From the UHGV virus genome UHGV-0286546: a stretch of 64,000 bases of DNA. The stretch is one strand, 5' to 3'. The notes below the pieces were generated by a model. That model did no database searches. It saw nothing but the letters and a program-made list of their open reading frames with translations, and was not told where the DNA came from. Shown here piece after piece: positions 1,164 to 34,117 of this stretch (positions are counted from its first letter, which is position 1; each line of letters opens with the position of its first letter). Made by a program: the position numbers and the translations under genes. The DNA is from a virus.

Positions 1164-1274
1164 TTTAATCCAATTGACTCCCTAAGCCTCTTAACAATGC
1201 GCAACTAGTCTCTGAATTAACAGTAGATGTATATATAAGCTGCAGTAATTATATATATAGGAGTCGTTTTCTGT

Positions 1275-1305
1275 TTTACAATACAATTAAAATACTGCAT
1301 ATAAT
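1275..1305 (+). promoter_or_regulatory. sigma70-like promoter GTTTTACA...TGcaTATAAT
   Basis: -35 TTTACA, extended -10 TGCATATAAT (spacer ~19). Confidence 0.4.
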
Positions 1306-1603: not shown

Positions 1604-1723
1604 GAGAGGGTAGCTCAGTCTGGTAGAGCAACGTAAAAAAGTATTTAGTATTTAAGTACGTTCAGCAACATATATTTTTGGTTGGTAACCCGTGTGTCGT
1701 AGGTTCAAATCCTACCCCTCTCA
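1604..1723 (+). ncRNA. tRNA-like RNA with intact acceptor/D/T arms but ~45-nt expansion of the anticodon region (intron-containing tRNA, pseudo-tRNA or Y-RNA-like)
   Basis: GAGAGGG..CCCTCTC acceptor pairing, D arm GCTCAGTCTGGTAGAGC, T arm GTAGGTTCAAATCCTAC; between them ACGTA-21nt-TACGT stem plus ~35 extra nt; no encoded CCA. Confidence 0.5.
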
Positions 1724-2021
1724 ACAAGTTTTGGTTTGTTAGTTTAGATAGGCTATAATTAAAGTAAGTAAGTTTGGAAGTTACGACACAGACCAAATAA
1801 CCTATCGTTTCCAAATTATCTTTATCGTTGTCGTGAAGGATAAAGAGTGAAAAACTAACGTTAAAGTGACAAAAAGTATACTTAATTATCCAAAGTATTG
1901 CCAATATCACTTGAATTTATGGGTGTCGTGTTTTCGAAAGAGCATGAAGGTCAGGGTCAATCCCAAAAGAGTCACGAACGTGGATTTCATATTTTACCTC
2001 CACCTGCCCATAATTTTTTAT
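1724..2021. other. ORF-free, GC-elevated spacer between tRNA-like elements; candidate structured ncRNA region
   Basis: No ORF >60 aa except one overlapping antisense ORF; local GC visibly higher than flanks; several short palindromes. Confidence 0.3.
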
Positions 2022-2113
2022 GCTCCGTCGTAGTCTTGGTGACCACTAGTTGAATGTCTATAGCTCCAGTCAATTAGTATGGGAATACTGTTCGAATCAG
2101 TTACGGGGTACCA
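2022..2113 (+). ncRNA. second tRNA-like element (acceptor GCTCCGT/ACGGGGT, canonical T arm TACTG-TTCGAAT-CAGTT, encoded CCA) with nonstandard ~40-nt anticodon/variable region
   Basis: 7-bp acceptor pairing incl. two G-U, D-like GTC-TTGGT-GAC, T-loop TTCGAAT, discriminator A + CCA at 2111-2113; core cannot be folded into a standard anticodon arm by eye. Confidence 0.4.
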
Positions 2114-2355
2114 ATTTTTATGAGTAGTTTATTAGTTCTTCTCGCCTTGGAAAATTGAACTAGTGAATAGTCATCTTGTAATGGTAAACATTCTTGACTG
2201 AAACTAAAGAAAAGTTTATATGTTTATTAGAGTAATATGGTAAGCCGCGGCTGAGACTTATAAGGGTAAGTAGATATATAGATGTAATGAAAGTTTTACC
2301 ACAGTATAAAGATTAGTAATATGAAGAAAGAATTAAATGACGCGAGGATAAAATA

Positions 2356-2541
2356 ATGAAAGCAAAGAAAATGACAATATCGATTAAAATACCTAAACCT
2401 AGAGATTTTAATCATTATACCTTACAATTAAAAGGATTGATGAGAACGAAAGTAATTAAAAATAAAAAGAAAGAAATCAAGAAATTCAATTGGAAAAAAG
2501 ATAGTACAGATTATTCAAACATTATATTAGCTAGTGCTTAA
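2356..2541 (+). CDS. small basic protein
   Basis: ORF with SD gaggataa; lysine-rich. Confidence 0.35.
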   Translation: MKAKKMTISIKIPKPRDFNHYTLQLKGLMRTKVIKNKKKEIKKFNWKKDSTDYSNIILASA

Positions 2542-2562
2542 ATAATTTGTATTGTCTTCATT

Positions 2563-2650
2563 GGAGGAATGGCAGAGTGGCTTAATGCAGCGGTTTACTA
2601 AACCGTCGTACCGAAAGGTGCCGTGGGTTCAAATCCTACTTCCTCCGCCA
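2563..2650 (+). tRNA. tRNA-Ser (class II, long variable arm, G73), anticodon reads ACU as hand-folded
   Basis: Acceptor GGAGGAA/TTCCTCC, discriminator G, encoded CCA, long variable arm CGTACCGAAAGGTGCCG, T arm GGGTTCAAATCC; anticodon loop TTACTAA. Confidence 0.8.
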
Positions 2651-2657
2651 ATTTATT

Positions 2658-2751
2658 AGGTCTGTCGTTCAATGGTTAGGACACTAGGCTTATACCCTAG
2701 CGAGCGTCTGATTAACGCGAAATCCCAGTTCGAGTCTGGGCGGACCTACCA
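2658..2751 (+). tRNA. class II tRNA (long 23-nt variable arm, A73) with anticodon loop CTTATAC = anticodon UAU as hand-folded (Leu-like body, Ile AUA anticodon)
   Basis: Acceptor AGGTCTG/CGGACCT, D stem GTTC/GGAC, anticodon stem CTAGG/CCTAG, T arm CCCAG-TTCGAGT-CTGGG, A + CCA. Confidence 0.7.
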
Positions 2752-2776
2752 GTTTTAAATAAGAAAGGAAGTATAA

Positions 2777-2971
2777 ATGAGCACACGTCAAGAATATAAT
2801 AAAAAAATTTTAGCACATATTTCTGAAAAAATAGACCAGTGTTCAGATATGCGTTTTGTACAAATTCTGTGGGCATTGAGAATTGATGATGGACAAGATA
2901 ATTTCTACGAAGAATCGAAAGAAACGTTAGAAAAAGTAGAAAACAATCTAAAGAAAATTAATAACGAATAA
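2777..2971 (+). CDS. hypothetical protein
   Basis: ORF with SD aaggaag. Confidence 0.5.
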   Translation: MSTRQEYNKKILAHISEKIDQCSDMRFVQILWALRIDDGQDNFYEESKETLEKVENNLKKINNE

Positions 2972-2984
2972 TATTATTTCCGGT

Positions 2985-3013
2985 TTTACAATATTTTTAA
3001 CAAGACATATATT
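2985..3013 (+). promoter_or_regulatory. sigma70-like promoter GTTTTACA-N17-TATATT
   Basis: -35 TTTACA 2985-2990, 17-nt spacer, -10 TATATT; upstream of vWA gene. Confidence 0.45.
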
Positions 3014-3046
3014 TGTTTATAGATTAACAGAAAAAAGGAAGTGGAT

Positions 3047-4531
3047 ATGTCTGATAATAAAACAATGACTGAAAAAGGTGCTATTACTAATCAATCTACA
3101 TTAGACAAAGTTGTAGATTGGTTTTATCATGGAGCCGCATTACGTAGAGAAAAAAACAAAGACCGTATTATAGCTTTGTTTGATGATGCTTTTAAACAGG
3201 ATAAAACCAAAGCATTGCGTATTTTATTTTATATTCGTGATATTCGTGGTGGTCAAGGTGAAAGACGCATTTTTAGAATTTGCTTAAATCATTTGGCAAA
3301 AATAGAATCTGCTTGGTTAAAAGACAATTTGGCATTAATTGCTGAATACGGCAGATATGATGATTATTTGTGCTTGCTTGATACAGAAATTAAAAGTGCT
3401 GTAATTGATTTCGTTAAAGCACAATTAGATAAAGATATTGCTGCAATAGATAGCAATACACCTATTTCATTGCTTGCCAAATGGATGCCTTCCGTTACAA
3501 CCAAGAATAAAGAAAAAAGAAGATATTTAAATGCTCTTTTGAATTCTGGTAAATTTGGCACAGTAAAAAATTATAGACAAACGTTATCTAAACTTCGTGA
3601 TAAATTAAATATTGTTGAAAAGAATCTTTGCAATAAAGCCTTTGCTGAAATTGAATATTCTAAAGTTTCTTCTAATGCAATGTCTAAGTATTCAAAAACT
3701 AGAATTTCATCTGGATTAGCTGGTACTTTTTGGCGCAATGACTTAGATAGATTTAAAATGTATTTAGACGCTGTTAAAAACGGTAAAACAATCGACGGCA
3801 AAGAAGTAAAAATAAATGCAAAAACCTTATATCCATATGATGTTATTACAAAATATATGAGTGGTTATAGTATAAGTCATCAAGAAGATCCTGCAGCGGA
3901 AGCTCAATGGAATGCTTTACCTGATTATGTACCAGAGATTAACGGCATTGTAATTTATGATACTTCGGGTTCAATGTATGGATTACCTATGGCTGTATCT
4001 TTGTCGTTGGCTATTTATATTGCTGAAAGAAATAAATCAGAAGTTTGGCGTAATTATGTTATTCCATTCTCATCTAATGCGACTTGGAAAAAAGTAAAGG
4101 GTAACAATTTAGTAGAAAAAATTGAATCTATTTATACTGGAGATTGTTCAAATACTAATTTACAAGCAGCCTTTGATCTTATTTTAGGTAAAGCTATATA
4201 TGCGCAAGTACCTAAAGAAGATATGCCAAAACAGCTGATTATTATTAGTGATATGGAATTTGATTCGGTTTCTTCTAATAACCAAACTAATTATGAAGCT
4301 ATAAAAAGCAAATATAAGAAAGCTGGTTATGACTTACCACAATTAATCTGGTGGAACGTTGAATCAAGAAGCAATCAAACACCGATTACAGTAAATGATA
4401 AAAATTGTTTATTGCTTTCTGGCTGTTCACCGGTAGTTATGCAAGTAGCTTTGGGTGGTTCATACGATTTTATGGAAGCAATCGATAAAATTATTAACCA
4501 AGAACGTTATAGTTGCATCAATTATAATTAG
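3047..4531 (+). CDS. vWA-domain protein with N-terminal alpha-helical domain; Ro60/TROVE-like (DUF2828-type) architecture
   Basis: MIDAS motif DTSGSM ~residue 300 followed by second acidic motif ISDMEFD; N-terminal ~300 aa helical with FYIRDIRGGQGERRIF segment; 494 aa like Rsr/Ro60; ATG 3047 6 nt after SD aaggaag (GTG at 3041 also possible). Confidence 0.8.
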   Translation: MSDNKTMTEKGAITNQSTLDKVVDWFYHGAALRREKNKDRIIALFDDAFKQDKTKALRILFYIRDIRGGQGERRIFRICLNHLAKIESAWLKDNLALIAEYGRYDDYLCLLDTEIKSAVIDFVKAQLDKDIAAIDSNTPISLLAKWMPSVTTKNKEKRRYLNALLNSGKFGTVKNYRQTLSKLRDKLNIVEKNLCNKAFAEIEYSKVSSNAMSKYSKTRISSGLAGTFWRNDLDRFKMYLDAVKNGKTIDGKEVKINAKTLYPYDVITKYMSGYSISHQEDPAAEAQWNALPDYVPEINGIVIYDTSGSMYGLPMAVSLSLAIYIAERNKSEVWRNYVIPFSSNATWKKVKGNNLVEKIESIYTGDCSNTNLQAAFDLILGKAIYAQVPKEDMPKQLIIISDMEFDSVSSNNQTNYEAIKSKYKKAGYDLPQLIWWNVESRSNQTPITVNDKNCLLLSGCSPVVMQVALGGSYDFMEAIDKIINQERYSCINYN

Positions 4532-4650
4532 TTCTTAATAACTATTAAAGACTGTGAAAAACGTACAGCAATCTATAAAATATTTTATATTGAAGACTTG
4601 CTGTGTTTTAACAGCATGATAAGGTATTAATTTCGGTTAATACCTGTTTA

Positions 4651-4716
4651 TAAGGAAGGGCCGAAACAAAAGTTTTTCGTTAAAAGACAGTCTTTACGGT
4701 CCTTCCTTTTTTTTAT
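4651..4716 (+). terminator. rho-independent terminator (branched hairpin + T8)
   Basis: aaggaagggccg...cggtccttcc followed by tttttttt; two further hairpins at 4556-4650. Confidence 0.6.
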
Positions 4717-4977: not shown

Positions 4978-5057
4978 AATTTTATTTATTTTTTGTTTTA
5001 CATTTATATTCTATATTATATAAATATATTGTTTTTAAGTCAATATAAAAATTTTAT

Positions 5058-5131
5058 TCGGGGGTCGTCTAGTGGCAGGACATGAGATTTTGGCTCTCAT
5101 AACGTTGGTTCGAATCCAGCCCCCCGAACCA
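5058..5131 (+). tRNA. tRNA-Gln (UUG)
   Basis: Acceptor TCGGGGG/CCCCCGA, D stem GTCT/GGAC, anticodon stem TGAGA/TCTCA loop TTTTGGC, T arm GTTGG-TTCGAAT-CCAGC, A+CCA. Confidence 0.85.
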
Positions 5132-5153
5132 AAAATTGAAAGGAAAAGAAAAA

Positions 5154-5380
5154 TGAAGTTATATGATAGTGGAATTATTTTAGGTAGTGTAATTGCATTT
5201 ATGATATATGGAATAGGGTATATTATAAATGGAAAAATTAATGAACAGCCTAAAGTAGACTATCAAGAACAAAGAATTCTAAACGAAGGTTATGTAAAAA
5301 CTAATTATACAGAAGATCAAATTTTCTACAGTGATTACCAAGAATGTGTAGAATATAAAGATCATTTTTATTGTTATTAA
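5154..5380 (+). CDS. small membrane protein
   Basis: ATG at 5154 after gaaaggaaaag; listed ORF 5072 starts inside tRNA-Gln and is N-terminally over-extended; one hydrophobic helix. Confidence 0.45.
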
Positions 5381-6042: not shown

Positions 6043-6600
6043 TTGTTGAGTTATAACAGATTAAAAAATTTTAGAAAATTACGAAAACTAGCTATATTAC
6101 AAGGATTTGGCGGAAAATGTCAATGTTGTGGTTATAACAAATGCGTTCAAGCTTTAGAATTTCATCATTTAAATTGTAATGATAAAGAATTTTCTATTAG
6201 TACCATTATGAATAAAAACTGGAACGAAATAAAAAATGAATTAAAAAAATGTATTTGTGTGTGTGCCAATTGTCATAGAGAAATACACAATAATTTATTA
6301 GAAATTGATGTTAATAAACAATATTTTGACGAAAACGCCGTACAAGATTATGAATGTGCTATAAATAAGGTAACAAAATATAGCAAATGTCCAATTTGCG
6401 GAGCATTAAAACCAGAATATAACAAATTTTGTTCTCGAAAATGTGCCGCGAAATCAAGAGATAGAGTAAATTGGGAACAATACGAAAGTTTAGTTTATAT
6501 TATTGATAATAAAATTGAATCTATTAATAGTATTGCTTCTAAATTAAATATTTCTTGGCAAGCTGTAAAGAAAAGATATAAAAAATTAAAATCGCAATAA
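6043..6600 (+). CDS. HNH homing endonuclease
   Basis: HNH motif EFHHL...CANCHREIH with flanking CxxC pairs; TTG start after SD tagggag; inserted between tRNA genes. Confidence 0.8.
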   Translation: MLSYNRLKNFRKLRKLAILQGFGGKCQCCGYNKCVQALEFHHLNCNDKEFSISTIMNKNWNEIKNELKKCICVCANCHREIHNNLLEIDVNKQYFDENAVQDYECAINKVTKYSKCPICGALKPEYNKFCSRKCAAKSRDRVNWEQYESLVYIIDNKIESINSIASKLNISWQAVKKRYKKLKSQ

Positions 6601-30975: not shown

Positions 30976-32208
30976 ATGGTTAAGAATGTACAAGATAAAT
31001 TGCTGATGCCGGAATTCACGATTGATACAGTTGTTAATGATAGTGGTATCGAAATTCCTGGTATCAAAAGAATGTATGATATTGCATTGGCTATTGGTGA
31101 TTCATTGATGCAGTGGGGTGGTCCAGGATGTGGTAAGTCTCAGTCAGTACAGCAGTGGAATGCAGATAAAGTTGCTGAGTATGAAAAACGTATGGCTGAA
31201 GGTGAAAAAGTAAAACCTTGGAATCCGGTCGTTTGTGATGTTCGTTTGTCTATGAAAGAGCCAGTTGATATGGTTGGTGTTCCTATTCCGACTAAAGATG
31301 AAAAAGGTAACATGACAACTGTTTGGGCAACTCCTTCGATGTGGCCTAAGAATGATGGTGAATTCGCTGGTGGTGTTATTCACTTGGATGAAATGAATCA
31401 GGGTCAAGCTGCTATTCTGAATGCTGCCTTCCAGTTGATTCAAGACCGTGCTTTGGGAGAATACAAAGTACCTGAAGGTTATATCATTATTGGTTCATCT
31501 AACCCGTCTGCATATAACTCTACTGTTACTGAGTTTTCTGTACCATTGTCAAACAGATTTAGTCACTTCAATGTTAAACCTGACTTCGATTCTTGGTTGA
31601 ACTACAGAATGAATAACGGTGGTAACTTGGATGTTATGACCTTCTTAAAGACACAGGGTATGAATATGTTGTTTGATAAAGAAGGTATGGAAGCCAAAGT
31701 TGGTAGTCTTGCCGATGCTATGTATACAGATATTGTTATCACTCCTCGCTCTTGGGAAGTAATTGAAAAAGTATTAGCGCTTCCTGATGGTAATAAAGCA
31801 ACTGGTGGATTTACAATAGATGAAAAACAAAGATATGCAACCGGTCGTTTAGGTCTTGCTATTGCTTCCAGACTGTTTACTTGGTTGAAAGATAAAGCTA
31901 AATATCAAGACTGGAGAGAAATCCTTATCGATGGTAAAGACTTTAAAGATGAAAACAGTGAACAATTCTGGGCTGTTCAGATGGCATGTATGAATGCAAT
32001 CATTAACCAGAAAGATGATGCGAAATGTCGTGAATATTGCTTGAACTTCGTAAAGGCTACAGAAAAACTTAAGACTGCAGCATTCAAAGTTATCAATATT
32101 ACACAGTTGATTAGATGTAAACGTGTTGAAGGTAATCTCAAAATCTTCAATTCGATGAGAGATGCACCTAACTTGATTCGTTTGATTTCAACAATCACTC
32201 GCAGATAA
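30976..32208 (+). CDS. MoxR-like AAA+ ATPase (AAA_5 type)
   Basis: Walker A GGPGCGKS, Walker B VIHLDEMNQ, sensor region; TAACCCAACC motif + SD upstream. Confidence 0.8.
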   Translation: MVKNVQDKLLMPEFTIDTVVNDSGIEIPGIKRMYDIALAIGDSLMQWGGPGCGKSQSVQQWNADKVAEYEKRMAEGEKVKPWNPVVCDVRLSMKEPVDMVGVPIPTKDEKGNMTTVWATPSMWPKNDGEFAGGVIHLDEMNQGQAAILNAAFQLIQDRALGEYKVPEGYIIIGSSNPSAYNSTVTEFSVPLSNRFSHFNVKPDFDSWLNYRMNNGGNLDVMTFLKTQGMNMLFDKEGMEAKVGSLADAMYTDIVITPRSWEVIEKVLALPDGNKATGGFTIDEKQRYATGRLGLAIASRLFTWLKDKAKYQDWREILIDGKDFKDENSEQFWAVQMACMNAIINQKDDAKCREYCLNFVKATEKLKTAAFKVINITQLIRCKRVEGNLKIFNSMRDAPNLIRLISTITRR

Positions 32209-32289
32209 TCTTAAGTAAAAACAAAGGGTTAGGTTATTAAGTTAGTCTAACCCTTTAACTTCTCAACCACAAAAAGAAAGGAAAGTAAA

Positions 32290-32694
32290 ATGTCTTATGT
32301 AGTAATGGATAAACAACGTAATGCCTTTGTTTTATTCGATAGGCATGTTAATAGTTCAACTCTAGAAATTATTACAACGGTTGAATTAGTCGGTTGTATA
32401 GAGATTGCTTCAGAATTTAGTTCACAAACGATTGCAGAAAAAATGATTGAGCAAGCCAGTGTAGCGTATGACACAACTGGTTATGAAGTAATCGATGTCG
32501 AAGCATATAAACAACAGAAAGAGGCTGAAGCGAAGGAGAATGCACAGAAATACCTAGCCGAAGAATGGAAGAAATTGTCACCTGAAGAAAAGAAAGAACA
32601 GATGAAAAAAGCTATCGATAATGGTAATATTGATGAGCTTAAAAAGTTTCTTGAATATGTTGGTGACGATGAATCTAAAGTCGACAACGATTAA
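32290..32694 (+). CDS. hypothetical acidic coiled-coil protein
   Basis: SD gaaaggaaagt. Confidence 0.5.
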   Translation: MSYVVMDKQRNAFVLFDRHVNSSTLEIITTVELVGCIEIASEFSSQTIAEKMIEQASVAYDTTGYEVIDVEAYKQQKEAEAKENAQKYLAEEWKKLSPEEKKEQMKKAIDNGNIDELKKFLEYVGDDESKVDND

Positions 32695-32740
32695 TCTAAA
32701 GTTGAAGAAGACTAAGTTATTGATTTGAAAGGATTTTAAT

Positions 32741-34117
32741 ATGACAGTTGATGTTAAAGAAATCTGGGAAGCTGCGATGGTTGAATTGGTCATTGAGTTT
32801 CCTATTTATGCACAACTTCTAACGAGAATAGGTACGACCTTTGTAAATGAACCTAATCGTAAGTTTGTAGCATGGACAGATGGTAGAACAATTTACGTTA
32901 ATGAGTCTATGATAAAAATGTTTAATGAAGATCCTATTGTTAAAGGTGATTCAGGAACACAGTATAACAGAGCCATTACAAAAAGAGAAATGATGTTCCT
33001 TCTGTGTCATGAGTTACTGCATCTTATTGGTTTAACTTACGATAGAGGTTCACAAAAAGGATTGTATCGTGGTGCAGTAAATGCTAACGATAGACACATG
33101 TGGGAATTATGGAATAAAGCCACTGACTATGAAATCAACAGCTTACTACATAATAATGAAAAGACTACAGACCGTGGCGATGTTGTACATAATGCTATCG
33201 GTAAAATGCCAGATTGGGTACTGTATGAAAGCGACTACCGTGACAAAACAGCAGAAGAAATCTTTGAAATCCTTAAGAAAGAGGATGAAAAGAATAATCA
33301 CGGCGGTGGTTCTGGTGGCTGTTCCGGTAAAGGTCAGTCAGCAGATGGAGGTCAAAGCTGTGGTAATAATGTAGATGGTCTTGATTTTAGTATTGATGAT
33401 CATATGCCAATACAGGATGATGCTACTAGAAACGAAGTACTTACTAAGATGTCAGAAGTATTCGGTTCAAGGACTAATGGTTTAGGTATGTCTTCAATCG
33501 ACAGAATGATTAATAACGTATATAAACCTCAACCCTTTAACTGGAGACGTGCACTTACTAGATATATTCGTGGCTGGATGAAAGATAACTATACTTGGAA
33601 CAGACCTTCTCGTGCTGGTATAGCGAATAACCTTATCCTTCCATCATCTGGTCGTACTCCTAAAATGCATATCGGAGTTGCAGTGGATACTTCTGGTTCA
33701 ATTCACGATACTGAGTTACATACTATGATGGATCACTTGTTTACCATTCTATCACAGTTTAAAGACTTTACTGTAGATGTTTGGTGTTGTGGTTCAAAAG
33801 TATATCCCGAAACGTTCCGAACATATACTGCATCGAATAAACGCGAACTACATAATTTCAAGTTTGCTTCTGATGGTGGTAATGATATGCGAGAGAATTT
33901 CAAGTTTATCAAAGAGAAATATAAACAGGATAAATTGGATGTCTTCATCTGTATGTCTGACTTCTATGATCCATTAGACGGTGATACAGAAACAGTAAGT
34001 CCTTGTCCTTGTATTTGGATGGTTCTTGATCACCCTTCATTCACACCACCGTCATTAATTAAAGCGGAAACCTATCCGTTTGTTGTTGAAGATAGTAAGA
34101 ACAATGCTGACTACTAA
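32741..34117 (+). CDS. vWA-domain protein with N-terminal DUF2201-like putative metallopeptidase domain (HExxH)
   Basis: LLCHELLHL motif; Gly-rich linker; MIDAS DTSGS at C-terminal vWA. Confidence 0.75.
   Translation: MTVDVKEIWEAAMVELVIEFPIYAQLLTRIGTTFVNEPNRKFVAWTDGRTIYVNESMIKMFNEDPIVKGDSGTQYNRAITKREMMFLLCHELLHLIGLTYDRGSQKGLYRGAVNANDRHMWELWNKATDYEINSLLHNNEKTTDRGDVVHNAIGKMPDWVLYESDYRDKTAEEIFEILKKEDEKNNHGGGSGGCSGKGQSADGGQSCGNNVDGLDFSIDDHMPIQDDATRNEVLTKMSEVFGSRTNGLGMSSIDRMINNVYKPQPFNWRRALTRYIRGWMKDNYTWNRPSRAGIANNLILPSSGRTPKMHIGVAVDTSGSIHDTELHTMMDHLFTILSQFKDFTVDVWCCGSKVYPETFRTYTASNKRELHNFKFASDGGNDMRENFKFIKEKYKQDKLDVFICMSDFYDPLDGDTETVSPCPCIWMVLDHPSFTPPSLIKAETYPFVVEDSKNNADY

What the first reader, a model, noticed from the sequence alone, without database searches (positions are those of the whole stretch)
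1604..4531. Ro60/TROVE-like vWA protein next to aberrant tRNA-like RNAs: possible phage Ro/Y-RNA-like module
Gene 3047..4531 has the Ro60/Rsr architecture: a ~300-aa helical N-domain followed by a vWA domain with MIDAS DTSGS, about 500 aa in total, DUF2828-like. Immediately upstream, within the tRNA cluster, lie two RNAs (1604-1723 and 2022-2113) with perfect tRNA acceptor, D and T arms but a greatly expanded central region. They are separated by ~300 nt of ORF-free GC-elevated DNA. Bacterial and mycobacteriophage Y RNAs (YrlA) are tRNA-mimicking RNAs encoded beside rsr. The co-location here suggests an analogous RNP, which has not to my knowledge been described for T4-like phages.
Basis: inference. 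Interest (0 to 1): 0.75.

Follow-up and report, generated by a model that had tools for sequence, protein, structure and literature searches.

The report
Phage Ro-like protein with partner RNAs
A large phage encodes a protein shaped like the Ro60 RNA-binding ring. Beside the gene lie a tRNA-shaped RNA and a second small RNA that share a short signature, a helix plus ACAGCAA. That signature sits next to this gene family in dozens of unrelated phages, which points to a widespread phage counterpart of the Ro/Y-RNA particle whose RNA partners had not been defined.

Summary

RNA 1604-1722 is real. It belongs to a covarying family of tRNA-shaped RNAs whose anticodon stem is split by a ~45-nt module: an A-rich run, a capped helix, then CAGCAA. 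A covariance model finds 95 such RNAs in 43 loci. All lie on the DUF2828 strand, mostly within 1 kb of the gene. Five of seven loci found by RNA pattern alone carry the gene 120-360 nt away.

The same helix+ACAGCAA core also occurs as stand-alone hairpins beside the gene in Listeria, Campylobacter, Vibrio, E. coli, Staphylococcus, Bacillus and Mycobacterium phages.

RNA 2022-2113 is a conserved odd tRNA-like RNA that lacks the module, so its membership is unproven.

The best reading is a Ro/Y-RNA-like particle that uses a new RNA motif absent from Rfam. RNA-protein binding is inferred, not shown. The protein family and the Y-RNA idea are already published for Bas63 gp130 and CKA15_055. The RNA motif appears to be new.

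The parts
3047..4531 (+). Gene for a 494-aa DUF2828+DUF7788 protein. It has a Ro60-like fold: an N-terminal helical repeat domain followed by a C-terminal vWA domain with MIDAS residues D305, S307, S309, T370 and D402. A GTG at 3041 is an alternative start.
1604..1722 (+). R1, a tRNA-shaped RNA carrying the family module.
- Acceptor stem: 1604-1610 with 1716-1722.
- D arm: 1613-1629.
- Lower anticodon stem: ACG 1631-1633 with CGU 1691-1693.
- A-run: UAAAAAA 1634-1640.
- Capped helix: 1641-1648 with 1652-1659.
- UCAGCAA: 1662-1668.
- Distal hairpin: GG 1680-1681, loop UUGGUAA 1682-1688, CC 1689-1690.
- Variable loop: 1694-1698.
- T arm: 1699-1715.
   Evidence: Sequence and fold. Family covariance model score 92 bits, E 4e-17, against at most 43.6 bits for ordinary tRNAs. 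Orthologs in L002, L004 and L102. Family covariation. Split anticodon stem test.
4546..4714 (+). Stand-alone module RNA in the 3' region of the gene.
- P1a: (U)AAAGACUGU 4546-4555.
- P2a: AAAAAC 4557-4562.
- ACAGCAA: 4565-4571.
- Variable ~100 nt with hairpins.
- P2b: GUUUUU 4672-4677.
- Bulge: CGUUAAAAG 4678-4686.
- P1b: ACAGUCUUU(A) 4687-4696.
- G+C-rich stem 4654-4663 with 4697-4706, followed by U8 at 4707-4714 (terminator-like).
   Evidence: Motif position. RNAfold z -5.1. The same architecture occurs at the same place in L002, L003, L099, L102, L096 and L004, with different, complementary P1 sequences. The simple terminator scan does not call the stem because its loop is 33 nt.
2022..2113 (+). 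R2, an aberrant class II-like tRNA-shaped RNA with encoded CCA and a 16-nt loop where the anticodon loop would be. It lacks the CAGCAA module. Its membership of the system is unproven.
   Evidence: One homolog at L096 4716-4806 has compensatory changes in the acceptor, T and central stems. Not hit by the family model or by Rfam.
2985..3013 (+). Promoter-like site (TTTACA-17-TATATT) upstream of the gene. It sits inside a block, TTTCC(G/T)GTTTTACA, that is conserved upstream of the homologous genes in L002 and L003. This implies that the gene and the 3' element are one transcription unit, separate from R1.
   Evidence: Consensus scan. Upstream sequences of relatives. Inference only.

Best explanation
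The protein is a phage member of the Ro60 structural class, in its DUF2828/DUF7788 branch. It most likely forms a ribonucleoprotein with small RNAs encoded beside it.

**The proposed recognition element.** It is a short helix (P1, commonly AAGAY.../...RUCUUG) whose two strands continue into conserved single strands. GUAAAA lies 5' of one strand and ACAGCAA lies 3' of the other.

**Three topologies of this core.**
- A stand-alone hairpin, with P1 formed by the RNA ends and a large variable loop, like a Y RNA. In the window this is ~4546-4714, co-transcribed in the 3' region of the gene.
- The core capped by a loop and set into the anticodon stem of an otherwise complete tRNA. In the window this is R1 at 1604-1722, built on a tRNA-Thr(GGU) body. 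It is probably cut out by RNase P and RNase Z like its tRNA neighbours.
- In mycobacteriophage Crossroads, the permuted form, with T arm, closed acceptor hairpin and D arm inside the loop. This is the YrlA topology.

**Proposed function.** By analogy with Rsr-YrlA-PNPase, the RNA would tether the ring protein to tRNA-handling or RNA-decay enzymes, or gate the ring. The particle would then act in RNA (probably tRNA) surveillance or in countering host defence during infection.

**Shown versus inferred.**
- Shown: the fold class, the RNA family and its covariation, and the strict genomic linkage and strand bias.
- Inferred: physical binding, the processing steps, and the cellular role.
For: **Fold**
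- Foldseek E-values are 1e-7 to 1e-6 for the same three structures.

**Linkage**
- [AT]CAGCAA on the gene strand occurs at 2.26 per kb in the 500 nt upstream and 2.53 per kb in the 500 nt downstream of DUF2828, in 73 non-identical loci. The background is about 0.2 per kb. The opposite strand has 0 and 12 hits.
- The covariance model gives 95 hits of at least 65 bits in 43 loci (40 of the 80 IMG/VR DUF2828 loci). All are on the gene strand.
- Loci found by RNA pattern alone (L005, L006, L007, L009, L010) each carry DUF2828 120-360 nt away on the same strand.

**Structure**
- In 40 family members, 93.4% of cells are paired, against 66% in shuffles and about 45% in slid controls. There are 267 double-change cells against 74 expected. 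None of 500 shuffles does as well.
- For motif copies near the gene, AGRY lies just upstream in 80%, against 24% of controls. A 7-bp partner lies downstream in 46%, against 5%.

**Breadth**
- The motif lies next to the gene in KVP40, EC6, List-36 and CP81, and in Crossroads, Tsamsa and a Staphylococcus phage.
- The Crossroads copy has YrlA-like order.

**Literature**
- phiLo Ro60 binds two upstream Y-like RNAs and PNPase (PMC12135203).
- Bas63 gp130 is Ro60-like, lies upstream of tRNAs and counters the Ppl defence system (PMC11482910).
- CKA15_055 lies near abundant non-coding transcripts (PMC12282133).
Against: - No binding data exist for any DUF2828 protein.
- There is no TROVE sequence signal. 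The TM-scores to Ro60 are low (0.33-0.50). Ring closure was not checked.
- The RNAs fail the Rfam YrlA model and lack GNCGAA.
- In the window, R1 lies 1.3 kb upstream in a different transcription unit, with two tRNAs and two small ORFs in between.
- 30 of 44 family members would become canonical tRNAs with sense anticodons if the insert were removed. The Thr anticodon is kept in R1 orthologs. This fits an intron at least as well as a mimic.
- In the A+T-rich clade of the window, the P1 helix of the 3' element is not individually significant. Its support is comparative only.
Confidence: 0.6

Rival explanations
1. R1-type RNAs are genuine decoding tRNAs (here tRNA-Thr GGU) interrupted by a new kind of short intron or removable insert in the 5' strand of the anticodon stem. 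The DUF2828 protein would be a maturation, splicing or chaperone factor for them, or would simply be co-located with them. It would not be a stable RNP partner.
For: - Removing the insert restores a perfect 5-bp stem, a 7-nt loop and a 4-5-nt variable loop in 30 of 44 members. Shuffled controls give 2.3 +/- 1.5.
- Position 33 is U in 21 of 30 and position 37 is a purine in 25 of 30. All inferred anticodons are ordinary sense anticodons with G, U or C at position 34.
- R1 orthologs keep GGU or UGU.
- The window has no other tRNA-Thr.
- The acceptor stem is 99.6% paired.
- An RtcB ligase gene lies near the gene in Listeria phage List-36.
Against: - The insert sits at variable positions (after 0-5 nt of the stem) and never at position 37/38.
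- No Rfam intron or ribozyme family matches.
- The same core occurs as stand-alone RNAs with no tRNA body, and in permuted YrlA-like order.
- L002 and L004 also carry a normal tRNA-Thr(UGU).
- Position 32 is A in 20 of 30, which is unusual for tRNAs.
- No ligase or endonuclease was recognised in the window.
Confidence: 0.22
2. The ACAGCAA elements are cis-acting signals of the DUF2828 transcript, such as an autoregulatory leader, a 3'-end or processing site, or a stability element. They would not be separate partner RNAs. The tRNA-embedded copies would be by-products.
For: - Many copies lie in the 5' leader within 70-200 nt of the start codon. In KVP40 the distance is 27 nt.
- In the window clade the element ends at a U-tract directly after the gene.
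Against: - There are one to five tandem copies per locus.
- Copies embedded in complete, covarying tRNA bodies would be excised by tRNA processing.
- Copies are interspersed among tRNAs up to 2 kb from the gene.
- Autoregulation would still require the protein to bind the motif, so this explanation overlaps with the best one.
Confidence: 0.12
3. The co-location is a coincidence. The RNAs are decayed tRNA genes in a tRNA-rich region, next to a generic vWA protein.
For: - The gene family usually sits in or beside phage tRNA clusters.
- R2 folds no better than shuffled sequence.
Against: - The motif shows a tenfold, strand-specific enrichment confined to about 500-1000 nt around the gene.
- A search by RNA pattern alone recovers the gene.
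- The RNAs covary strongly.
- The motif is conserved across phages of six bacterial phyla or classes.
Confidence: 0.03

Closest known systems
Bacterial Ro60 (Rsr) with YrlA/Y RNAs (Chen et al. 2014, PMC4201824), including the Rsr-Y RNA-PNPase machine
   Same: - The protein is a ring-type helical repeat domain plus a vWA/MIDAS domain.
- The small RNAs are encoded next to the gene on the same strand, often in several copies.
- One RNA class contains a tRNA-like domain with true D and T arms.
- The protein-linked module hangs from the position of the anticodon stem.
- The Crossroads copy has the YrlA order: stem, T arm, closed acceptor, D arm, stem.
   Different: - The protein has no TROVE sequence match. 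It belongs to the DUF2828/DUF7788 families.
- The RNAs do not hit Rfam YrlA, and they carry GUAAAA/ACAGCAA in place of GNCGAA.
- The window's R1 has native tRNA ends and a capped module helix. It also retains an anticodon-like hairpin.
Thermus phage phiLo Ro60 with Yrl1 and Yrl2 (PMC12135203; PDB 9KOP, 9L5Y)
   Same: - It is phage-encoded.
- Two candidate RNAs lie beside the gene.
- RNA binding and PNPase recruitment were shown experimentally for phiLo.
   Different: - phiLo Ro60 is deposited as a TROVE-domain protein. Sequence identity to the window protein is about 15%.
- Its RNAs were picked by a CGAA motif and are not tRNA-embedded.
Same protein family in studied phages: Bas63 gp130 (PMC11482910) and Listeria phage CKA15_055 (PMC12282133)
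   Same: - These are DUF2828-type, Ro60-like proteins next to tRNA regions. Homology to Felixounavirus and P100-like phages was confirmed.
- The authors of both papers guessed that nearby RNAs are Y RNAs.
- ACAGCAA elements are present at the expected places in EC6 and List-36.
   Different: - Neither paper defines the RNAs or a motif.
- Function is known only as a counter to the Ppl defence system (Bas63) and as presence in virions (CKA15).
- That Bas63 gp130 is the orthologue of EC6 gp023 is inferred from taxonomy and gene order. It was not tested here.
Intron-containing tRNAs (group I introns in bacterial and phage tRNAs; archaeal bulge-helix-bulge introns)
   Same: An insert interrupts the anticodon arm, and removing it precisely would give a canonical tRNA.
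   Different: - The insert is 40-50 nt, too short for a group I intron, and it is not at position 37/38.
- There is no Rfam intron hit.
- No bulge-helix-bulge geometry is apparent.
- The same module exists outside tRNAs.
T4 stable RNAs species 1 and 2 (RNA C and RNA D) from the tRNA cluster (from my own knowledge)
   Same: These are small stable RNAs of unknown function, encoded and processed within a T4-type phage tRNA cluster, with tRNA-like ends.
   Different: - No sequence comparison was made here.
- T4 lacks a DUF2828 gene as far as I know.

Membership tests
DUF2828/DUF7788 phage proteins (PHROG 850) | Pfam PF11443 and PF25043 above their gathering scores, plus a full-length PHROG 850 match | tested here: met
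   PF11443 scores 107.7 bits (cut-off 29) and PF25043 scores 136.8 bits (cut-off 27.1). phrog_850 gives E 2e-115 over residues 3-489. 705 phage records have full-length tblastn matches.
Ro60/TROVE proteins | Sequence match to the TROVE domain or to Ro60 sequences | tested here: not met
   TROVE is absent from the Pfam hits at E up to 1. Neither phmmer nor a 38-sequence profile hits any Ro60 chain in the PDB at E up to 10.
Ro60/TROVE proteins | Fold: a helical-repeat (HEAT-like) domain followed by a vWA domain, matching solved Ro60 structures over both domains | tested here: met
   [not shown]
Ro60/TROVE proteins | MIDAS motif DxSxS...T...D in the vWA domain | tested here: met
   D305, S307, S309, T370 and D402 are invariant in alignment A1.
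Ro60/TROVE proteins | Binds Y RNA and misfolded RNAs | not testable with these tools
   This needs RIP, EMSA or a structure of the complex.
YrlA / bacterial Y RNA (Rfam RF02553) | Encoded adjacent to the Ro60-type gene on the same strand | tested here: met
   In the window, the 3' element starts 15 nt after the stop codon and R1 lies 1.3 kb upstream.
YrlA / bacterial Y RNA (Rfam RF02553) | Match to the Rfam covariance model at its gathering score (69 bits) | tested here: not met
   There is no hit at R1, R2 or the 3' element. There is none in Crossroads, Tsamsa or the Staphylococcus phage. The only hits are 21-bit chance matches across tRNA pairs.
YrlA / bacterial Y RNA (Rfam RF02553) | GNCGAAN0-1G motif near the terminal stem | tested here: not met
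   R1 contains no CGAA (sequence). The family instead conserves CAGCAA and GUAAAA.
YrlA / bacterial Y RNA (Rfam RF02553) | tRNA-like domain with D and T arms, in permuted order with the RNA ends in the protein-binding stem | tested here: inconclusive
   [quoted passage not shown] R1 has native tRNA order. The permuted order is seen only in the Crossroads copy.
Canonical tRNA | Contiguous cloverleaf recognised by standard detectors | tested here: not met
   Default ARAGORN gives no call. Rfam tRNA gives no hit at E up to 10, even on 800 nt. ARAGORN with the intron option calls a tRNA with a 39-nt insert and an arbitrary anticodon.
Canonical tRNA | 7-bp acceptor stem, D arm and T arm with a TTCRANY loop | tested here: met
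   Sequence. Covariation in 40 members: acceptor 99.6% paired, T arm 100%, D arm 94%.
Group I or other known tRNA introns and ribozymes | Match to an Rfam intron or ribozyme model, with insertion in the anticodon loop | tested here: not met
   No such Rfam hit. The insertion is in the 5' strand of the stem, at variable positions.

The most novel reading that the evidence does not exclude
The helix+GUAAAA/ACAGCAA module is a portable protein-binding cassette that phages graft onto real tRNAs. It would create tRNAs whose anticodon arm is held, masked or released by a Ro-like ring. Two outcomes are possible. It could be a new, protein-dependent class of tRNA intron or switch. Or it could be a tRNA decoy or guard that defeats host defences that target tRNAs or sense nucleic acids, in line with the anti-Ppl phenotype of Bas63 gp130.
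Probability: 0.15. Interest if true: 0.9.

Novelty: new variant of a known kind. Interest (0 to 1): 0.68.

Why it matters
Ro60 and Y RNAs are conserved from bacteria to humans, yet their bacterial and viral roles are poorly understood. The DUF2828 branch is far more common in phages than canonical TROVE Ro60: 711 phage records. These include model groups such as Felix O1-like phages, KVP40, P100-like Listeria phages, Campylobacter phages and cluster L mycobacteriophages. One member has a defence-countering phenotype.

A defined RNA signature makes several things possible:
- It turns a vague guess ('some of the tRNAs may be Y RNAs') into specific, mutable candidates in tractable phages.
- It explains a class of 'aberrant tRNAs' that annotation pipelines miss or mislabel.
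- It offers a case in which a single RNA core is used in three circularly permuted contexts.
- If the tRNA-embedded copies prove functional, they would link RNA surveillance directly to phage tRNA biology.

Tried and rejected
1. **Sequence route to Ro60.** Pfam at E up to 1, phmmer, and a profile search against PDB sequences all gave nothing. Only fold comparison worked.
2. **Rfam.** YrlA, Y_RNA, tRNA, intron and ribozyme models on the window and on seven reference phages gave no family for the elements.
3. **Near-DNA relatives in INPHARED.** There are none; only tRNAs and an HNH gene match.
4. **Intron idea.** My first reading was 'a tRNA with an intron at 29/30'. I kept it as a rival rather than the lead after finding stand-alone and permuted copies of the same core.
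5. **Generic 'longest helix' test around the motif.** It was too permissive in A+T-rich DNA. In controls, 77% of sites had helices of at least 7 bp, and per-locus significance was weak. I replaced it with a constrained test and a covariance model.
6. **Exact-pattern scans of IMG/VR for R2 and for the window-type 3' element.** No hits.
7. **PADLOC and NCBIfam on the protein.** Nothing.
8. **Search for an RNA ligase or endonuclease partner among window ORFs of at least 180 aa.** None was recognised. Smaller ORFs were not scanned.
9. **My 'capped helix' counter.** It was mis-specified and its 1% figure should be ignored. The covariance model covers that class.


Full report
**What is in the window.**
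The window comes from an A+T-rich phage with a T4 Gp23-type capsid protein. Its closest relatives are metagenomic contigs of 235-254 kb. INPHARED holds no near-DNA relative.

The first 12 kb is a dispersed tRNA region with 12 standard tRNAs. Inside it lies the ORF 3047-4531.

**The protein.**
- It matches Pfam DUF2828 and DUF7788 above threshold. It matches PHROG 850, labelled 'RNA-binding protein', over its full length (2e-115).
- No TROVE signal was found with Pfam, phmmer or a 38-sequence profile against PDB sequences.
- An AlphaFold2 model built on 38 homologs is confident, with pLDDT 87.7 and pTM 0.82.
- With Foldseek, the only matches at E below 1e-3 are three Ro60 structures aligned over both domains: Thermus phage phiLo, Xenopus and Deinococcus Rsr.
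- The MIDAS residues are invariant.
Membership of the TROVE sequence family was tested and not met.
- The family is not new. There are 711 phage records with full-length homologs. They are annotated as 'Ro-like RNA binding protein' in cluster L mycobacteriophages and as 'RNA-binding protein' in KVP40, Campylobacter CP81, Listeria List-36, Felixounavirus EC6 and Bacillus Tsamsa.

**RNA 1604-1722 (R1).**
- The sequence has a complete acceptor stem, D arm and T arm. Standard detectors still miss it.
- The reason, read from the sequence and its homologs, is that the 5' strand of the anticodon stem is split. The order is ACG, a 46-nt insert, GG, the 7-nt loop UUGGUAA, then CCCGU.
- The insert reads UAAAAAA, then a capped 8-bp helix, then GU-UCAGCAA, then a linker.
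- Orthologs with the same layout lie upstream of the homologous gene in L002, L004 and L102. Their acceptor, T and anticodon stems show compensatory changes, and they carry a Thr anticodon (GGU or UGU).

**R1 belongs to a large family tied to the gene.**
- A pattern taken from R1 found seven IMG/VR loci. Five of them carry a DUF2828 gene 120-360 nt away on the same strand. The other two stretches are short.
- In the other direction, I fetched 80 loci through the protein and scanned them. ARAGORN with the intron option and a descriptor found 1-5 such RNAs just downstream of the gene in about half of them.
- In a 40-sequence alignment, 93.4% of cells are paired in the acceptor, D, T and module helices. 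Shuffles give 66% and slid controls about 45%. There are 267 double-change cells against 74 expected, and none of 500 shuffles does as well.
- A covariance model built from this alignment scores R1 at 92 bits and ordinary tRNAs at no more than 43.6 bits.
- The model finds 95 RNAs of at least 65 bits in 43 loci, all on the gene's strand.

**The core motif is wider than the tRNA-embedded form.**
- [AT]CAGCAA on the gene strand is enriched about tenfold in the 500 nt on each side of DUF2828 genes. The counts are 79 and 92 hits, against a background of about 0.2 per kb. The opposite strand has 0 and 12 hits.
- The upstream copies are stand-alone hairpins of the form (U)UWAGAY-NNN-ACAGCAA-[variable]-NNN'-RUCUWG, and the helix centre covaries.
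- AGRY lies just upstream of 80% of near-gene motifs, against 24% of controls. A 7-bp partner lies downstream in 46%, against 5%.
- The tRNA-embedded form is a circular permutation of the same core: ...AUCUUG-loop-AAGAU..-CAGCAA.
- The motif sits beside the gene in the following phages:
  - KVP40, 27 nt before the start codon.
  - EC6, four copies among the downstream tRNAs.
  - List-36, three copies just upstream.
  - CP81, two copies.
  - Crossroads, three copies just downstream.
  - Tsamsa.
  - A Staphylococcus phage.
- One Crossroads copy encloses a T arm, a closed acceptor hairpin and a D arm. This is the YrlA order (compare the consensus).
- Rfam 15 has no family for any of these elements.

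**A second element in the window.**
- ACAGCAA occurs at 4565, 34 nt after the stop codon.
- The region 4540-4705 folds with a z-score of -5.1.
- The same arrangement sits at the same place in L002, L003, L099, L102, L096 and L004, with different but complementary P1 sequences. The order is P1a, AAAAA(A)C, RU, ACAGCA(A/G), about 100 variable nt, GUUUUU(U), (C)GUAAAA, P1b, then a G+C-rich stem and a U-tract.
- Taken one locus at a time, helix length is not significant in this A+T-rich DNA. The support is comparative, and I give this element moderate confidence.
- R1 carries the same flanks: CGUAAAAAA before the helix and GU-UCAGCAA after it.

**RNA 2022-2113 (R2).**
- It lacks CAGCAA. Its fold is no better than shuffled sequence. 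The family model does not find it.
- One homolog, L096 4716-4806, has compensatory changes in three stems and an encoded CCA. R2 is therefore a real, unusual tRNA-like RNA.
- The central loop of the L096 homolog contains AUCU...AGAU followed by CAGUAUA, which may be a degenerate module. This is speculation.

**What it most likely does.**
- The linkage pattern is the one that defined bacterial Y RNAs (PMC4201824).
- A phage Ro60 has been shown to bind adjacent Y-like RNAs and host PNPase (PMC12135203).
- For DUF2828 homologs, Bas63 gp130 counters the Ppl defence system (PMC11482910). CKA15_055 is present in virions and lies near abundant non-coding transcripts (PMC12282133).
- I therefore favour a Ro/Y-like RNP (0.6).
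- The main rival (0.22) is that R1-type RNAs are true tRNAs with a removable insert. Its support is as follows:
  - 30 of 44 members regain a canonical anticodon arm on deleting the insert, against 2.3 +/- 1.5 in shuffles.
  - They have mostly U33 and R37.
  - They carry only sense anticodons.
- The two readings are not exclusive.

**Novelty.**
The protein family and the Y-RNA hypothesis are already published. The defined RNA core, its three topologies and its quantitative linkage to the gene are not in Rfam. I did not find them in the searchable literature.

Noticed in passing
window 2657-2751 (+); also L003 6885-6978 and L004 8932-9026: A 94-95-nt tRNA with anticodon UAU (Ile) has a long class II-type variable arm (~23 nt) and an encoded CCA. 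It is conserved in related phages. Class II architecture is not expected for tRNA-Ile, so its identity and charging are unclear.
   Followed up: partly
window 2563-2650 (+); also L004 7811-7900, L096 5486-5573 and L099 72-161: A class II tRNA-Ser with anticodon ACU (A at the wobble position) is conserved across relatives. A34 is unusual in bacterial-type tRNA-Ser.
   Followed up: no
L094 (Listeria phage List-36) 2420-2971: A ROOL RNA (Rfam RF03087, 91.5 bits against a gathering score of 99.1, E 2e-17) lies about 1 kb upstream of the DUF2828 gene. An HD phosphohydrolase gene and an RtcB ligase gene lie just downstream. Some of the 'highly transcribed regions' reported for phage CKA15 may correspond to this ROOL RNA.
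   Followed up: no
L103 (Mycobacterium phage Crossroads) about 4480-4645: An unannotated RNA lies directly after the 'RNA-binding protein' gene. Its order is P1a-ACAGCAA-...-T arm-closed acceptor hairpin-D arm-GCGUAUGCAAAAAUC-P1b. This is YrlA-like topology, but Rfam YrlA does not detect it.
   Followed up: partly
L001 6441-6734, L099 2934-3226, L100 2805-3097 and L003 2397-2693; equivalent area in the window about 5050-5343: ARAGORN with the intron option calls tRNAs with 219-223-nt inserts at position 36/37, which may be group I introns. In the window this area holds tRNA-Gln at 5058-5131 and a 102-aa ORF. There was no Rfam intron hit in the window. Unverified.
   Followed up: no
L008 3389-3528 and L011 524-663: A tRNA-Trp(CCA) carries a 68-nt insert after the anticodon loop. 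It sits in a ~5-kb ORF-free stretch packed with RNAs that also holds two module-bearing tRNA-like RNAs. No DUF2828 gene lies within the stretch held.
   Followed up: no
window 2114-2213 (+): The ~100 nt after R2 resemble segments that follow tRNAs in L002 (9351-9423, 78%) and L003 (6608-6707, 73%). This may be a repeated intergenic or processing element of the tRNA region.
   Followed up: no
window 1268-1305 and 2975-3013 (+): A repeated promoter-like block, TTYC(T/G)GTTTTACA-N17-TATAAT-like, lies upstream of ORF 1323-1595 (followed by R1) and upstream of the DUF2828 gene. The second copy is conserved in L002 and L003.
   Followed up: partly
window 6043-6600 (+): An HNH endonuclease ORF sits between tRNA genes. 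A 190-nt segment of it is 71-75% identical to Lak megaphage genomes, and this is the only non-tRNA DNA match of the window in INPHARED.
   Followed up: no
window 30976-34117 (+): A second vWA-type pair is present: an ATPase (phrog_1297) and a DUF2201 metallopeptidase/VWA-like protein. It is unrelated to the Ro-like gene.
   Followed up: no
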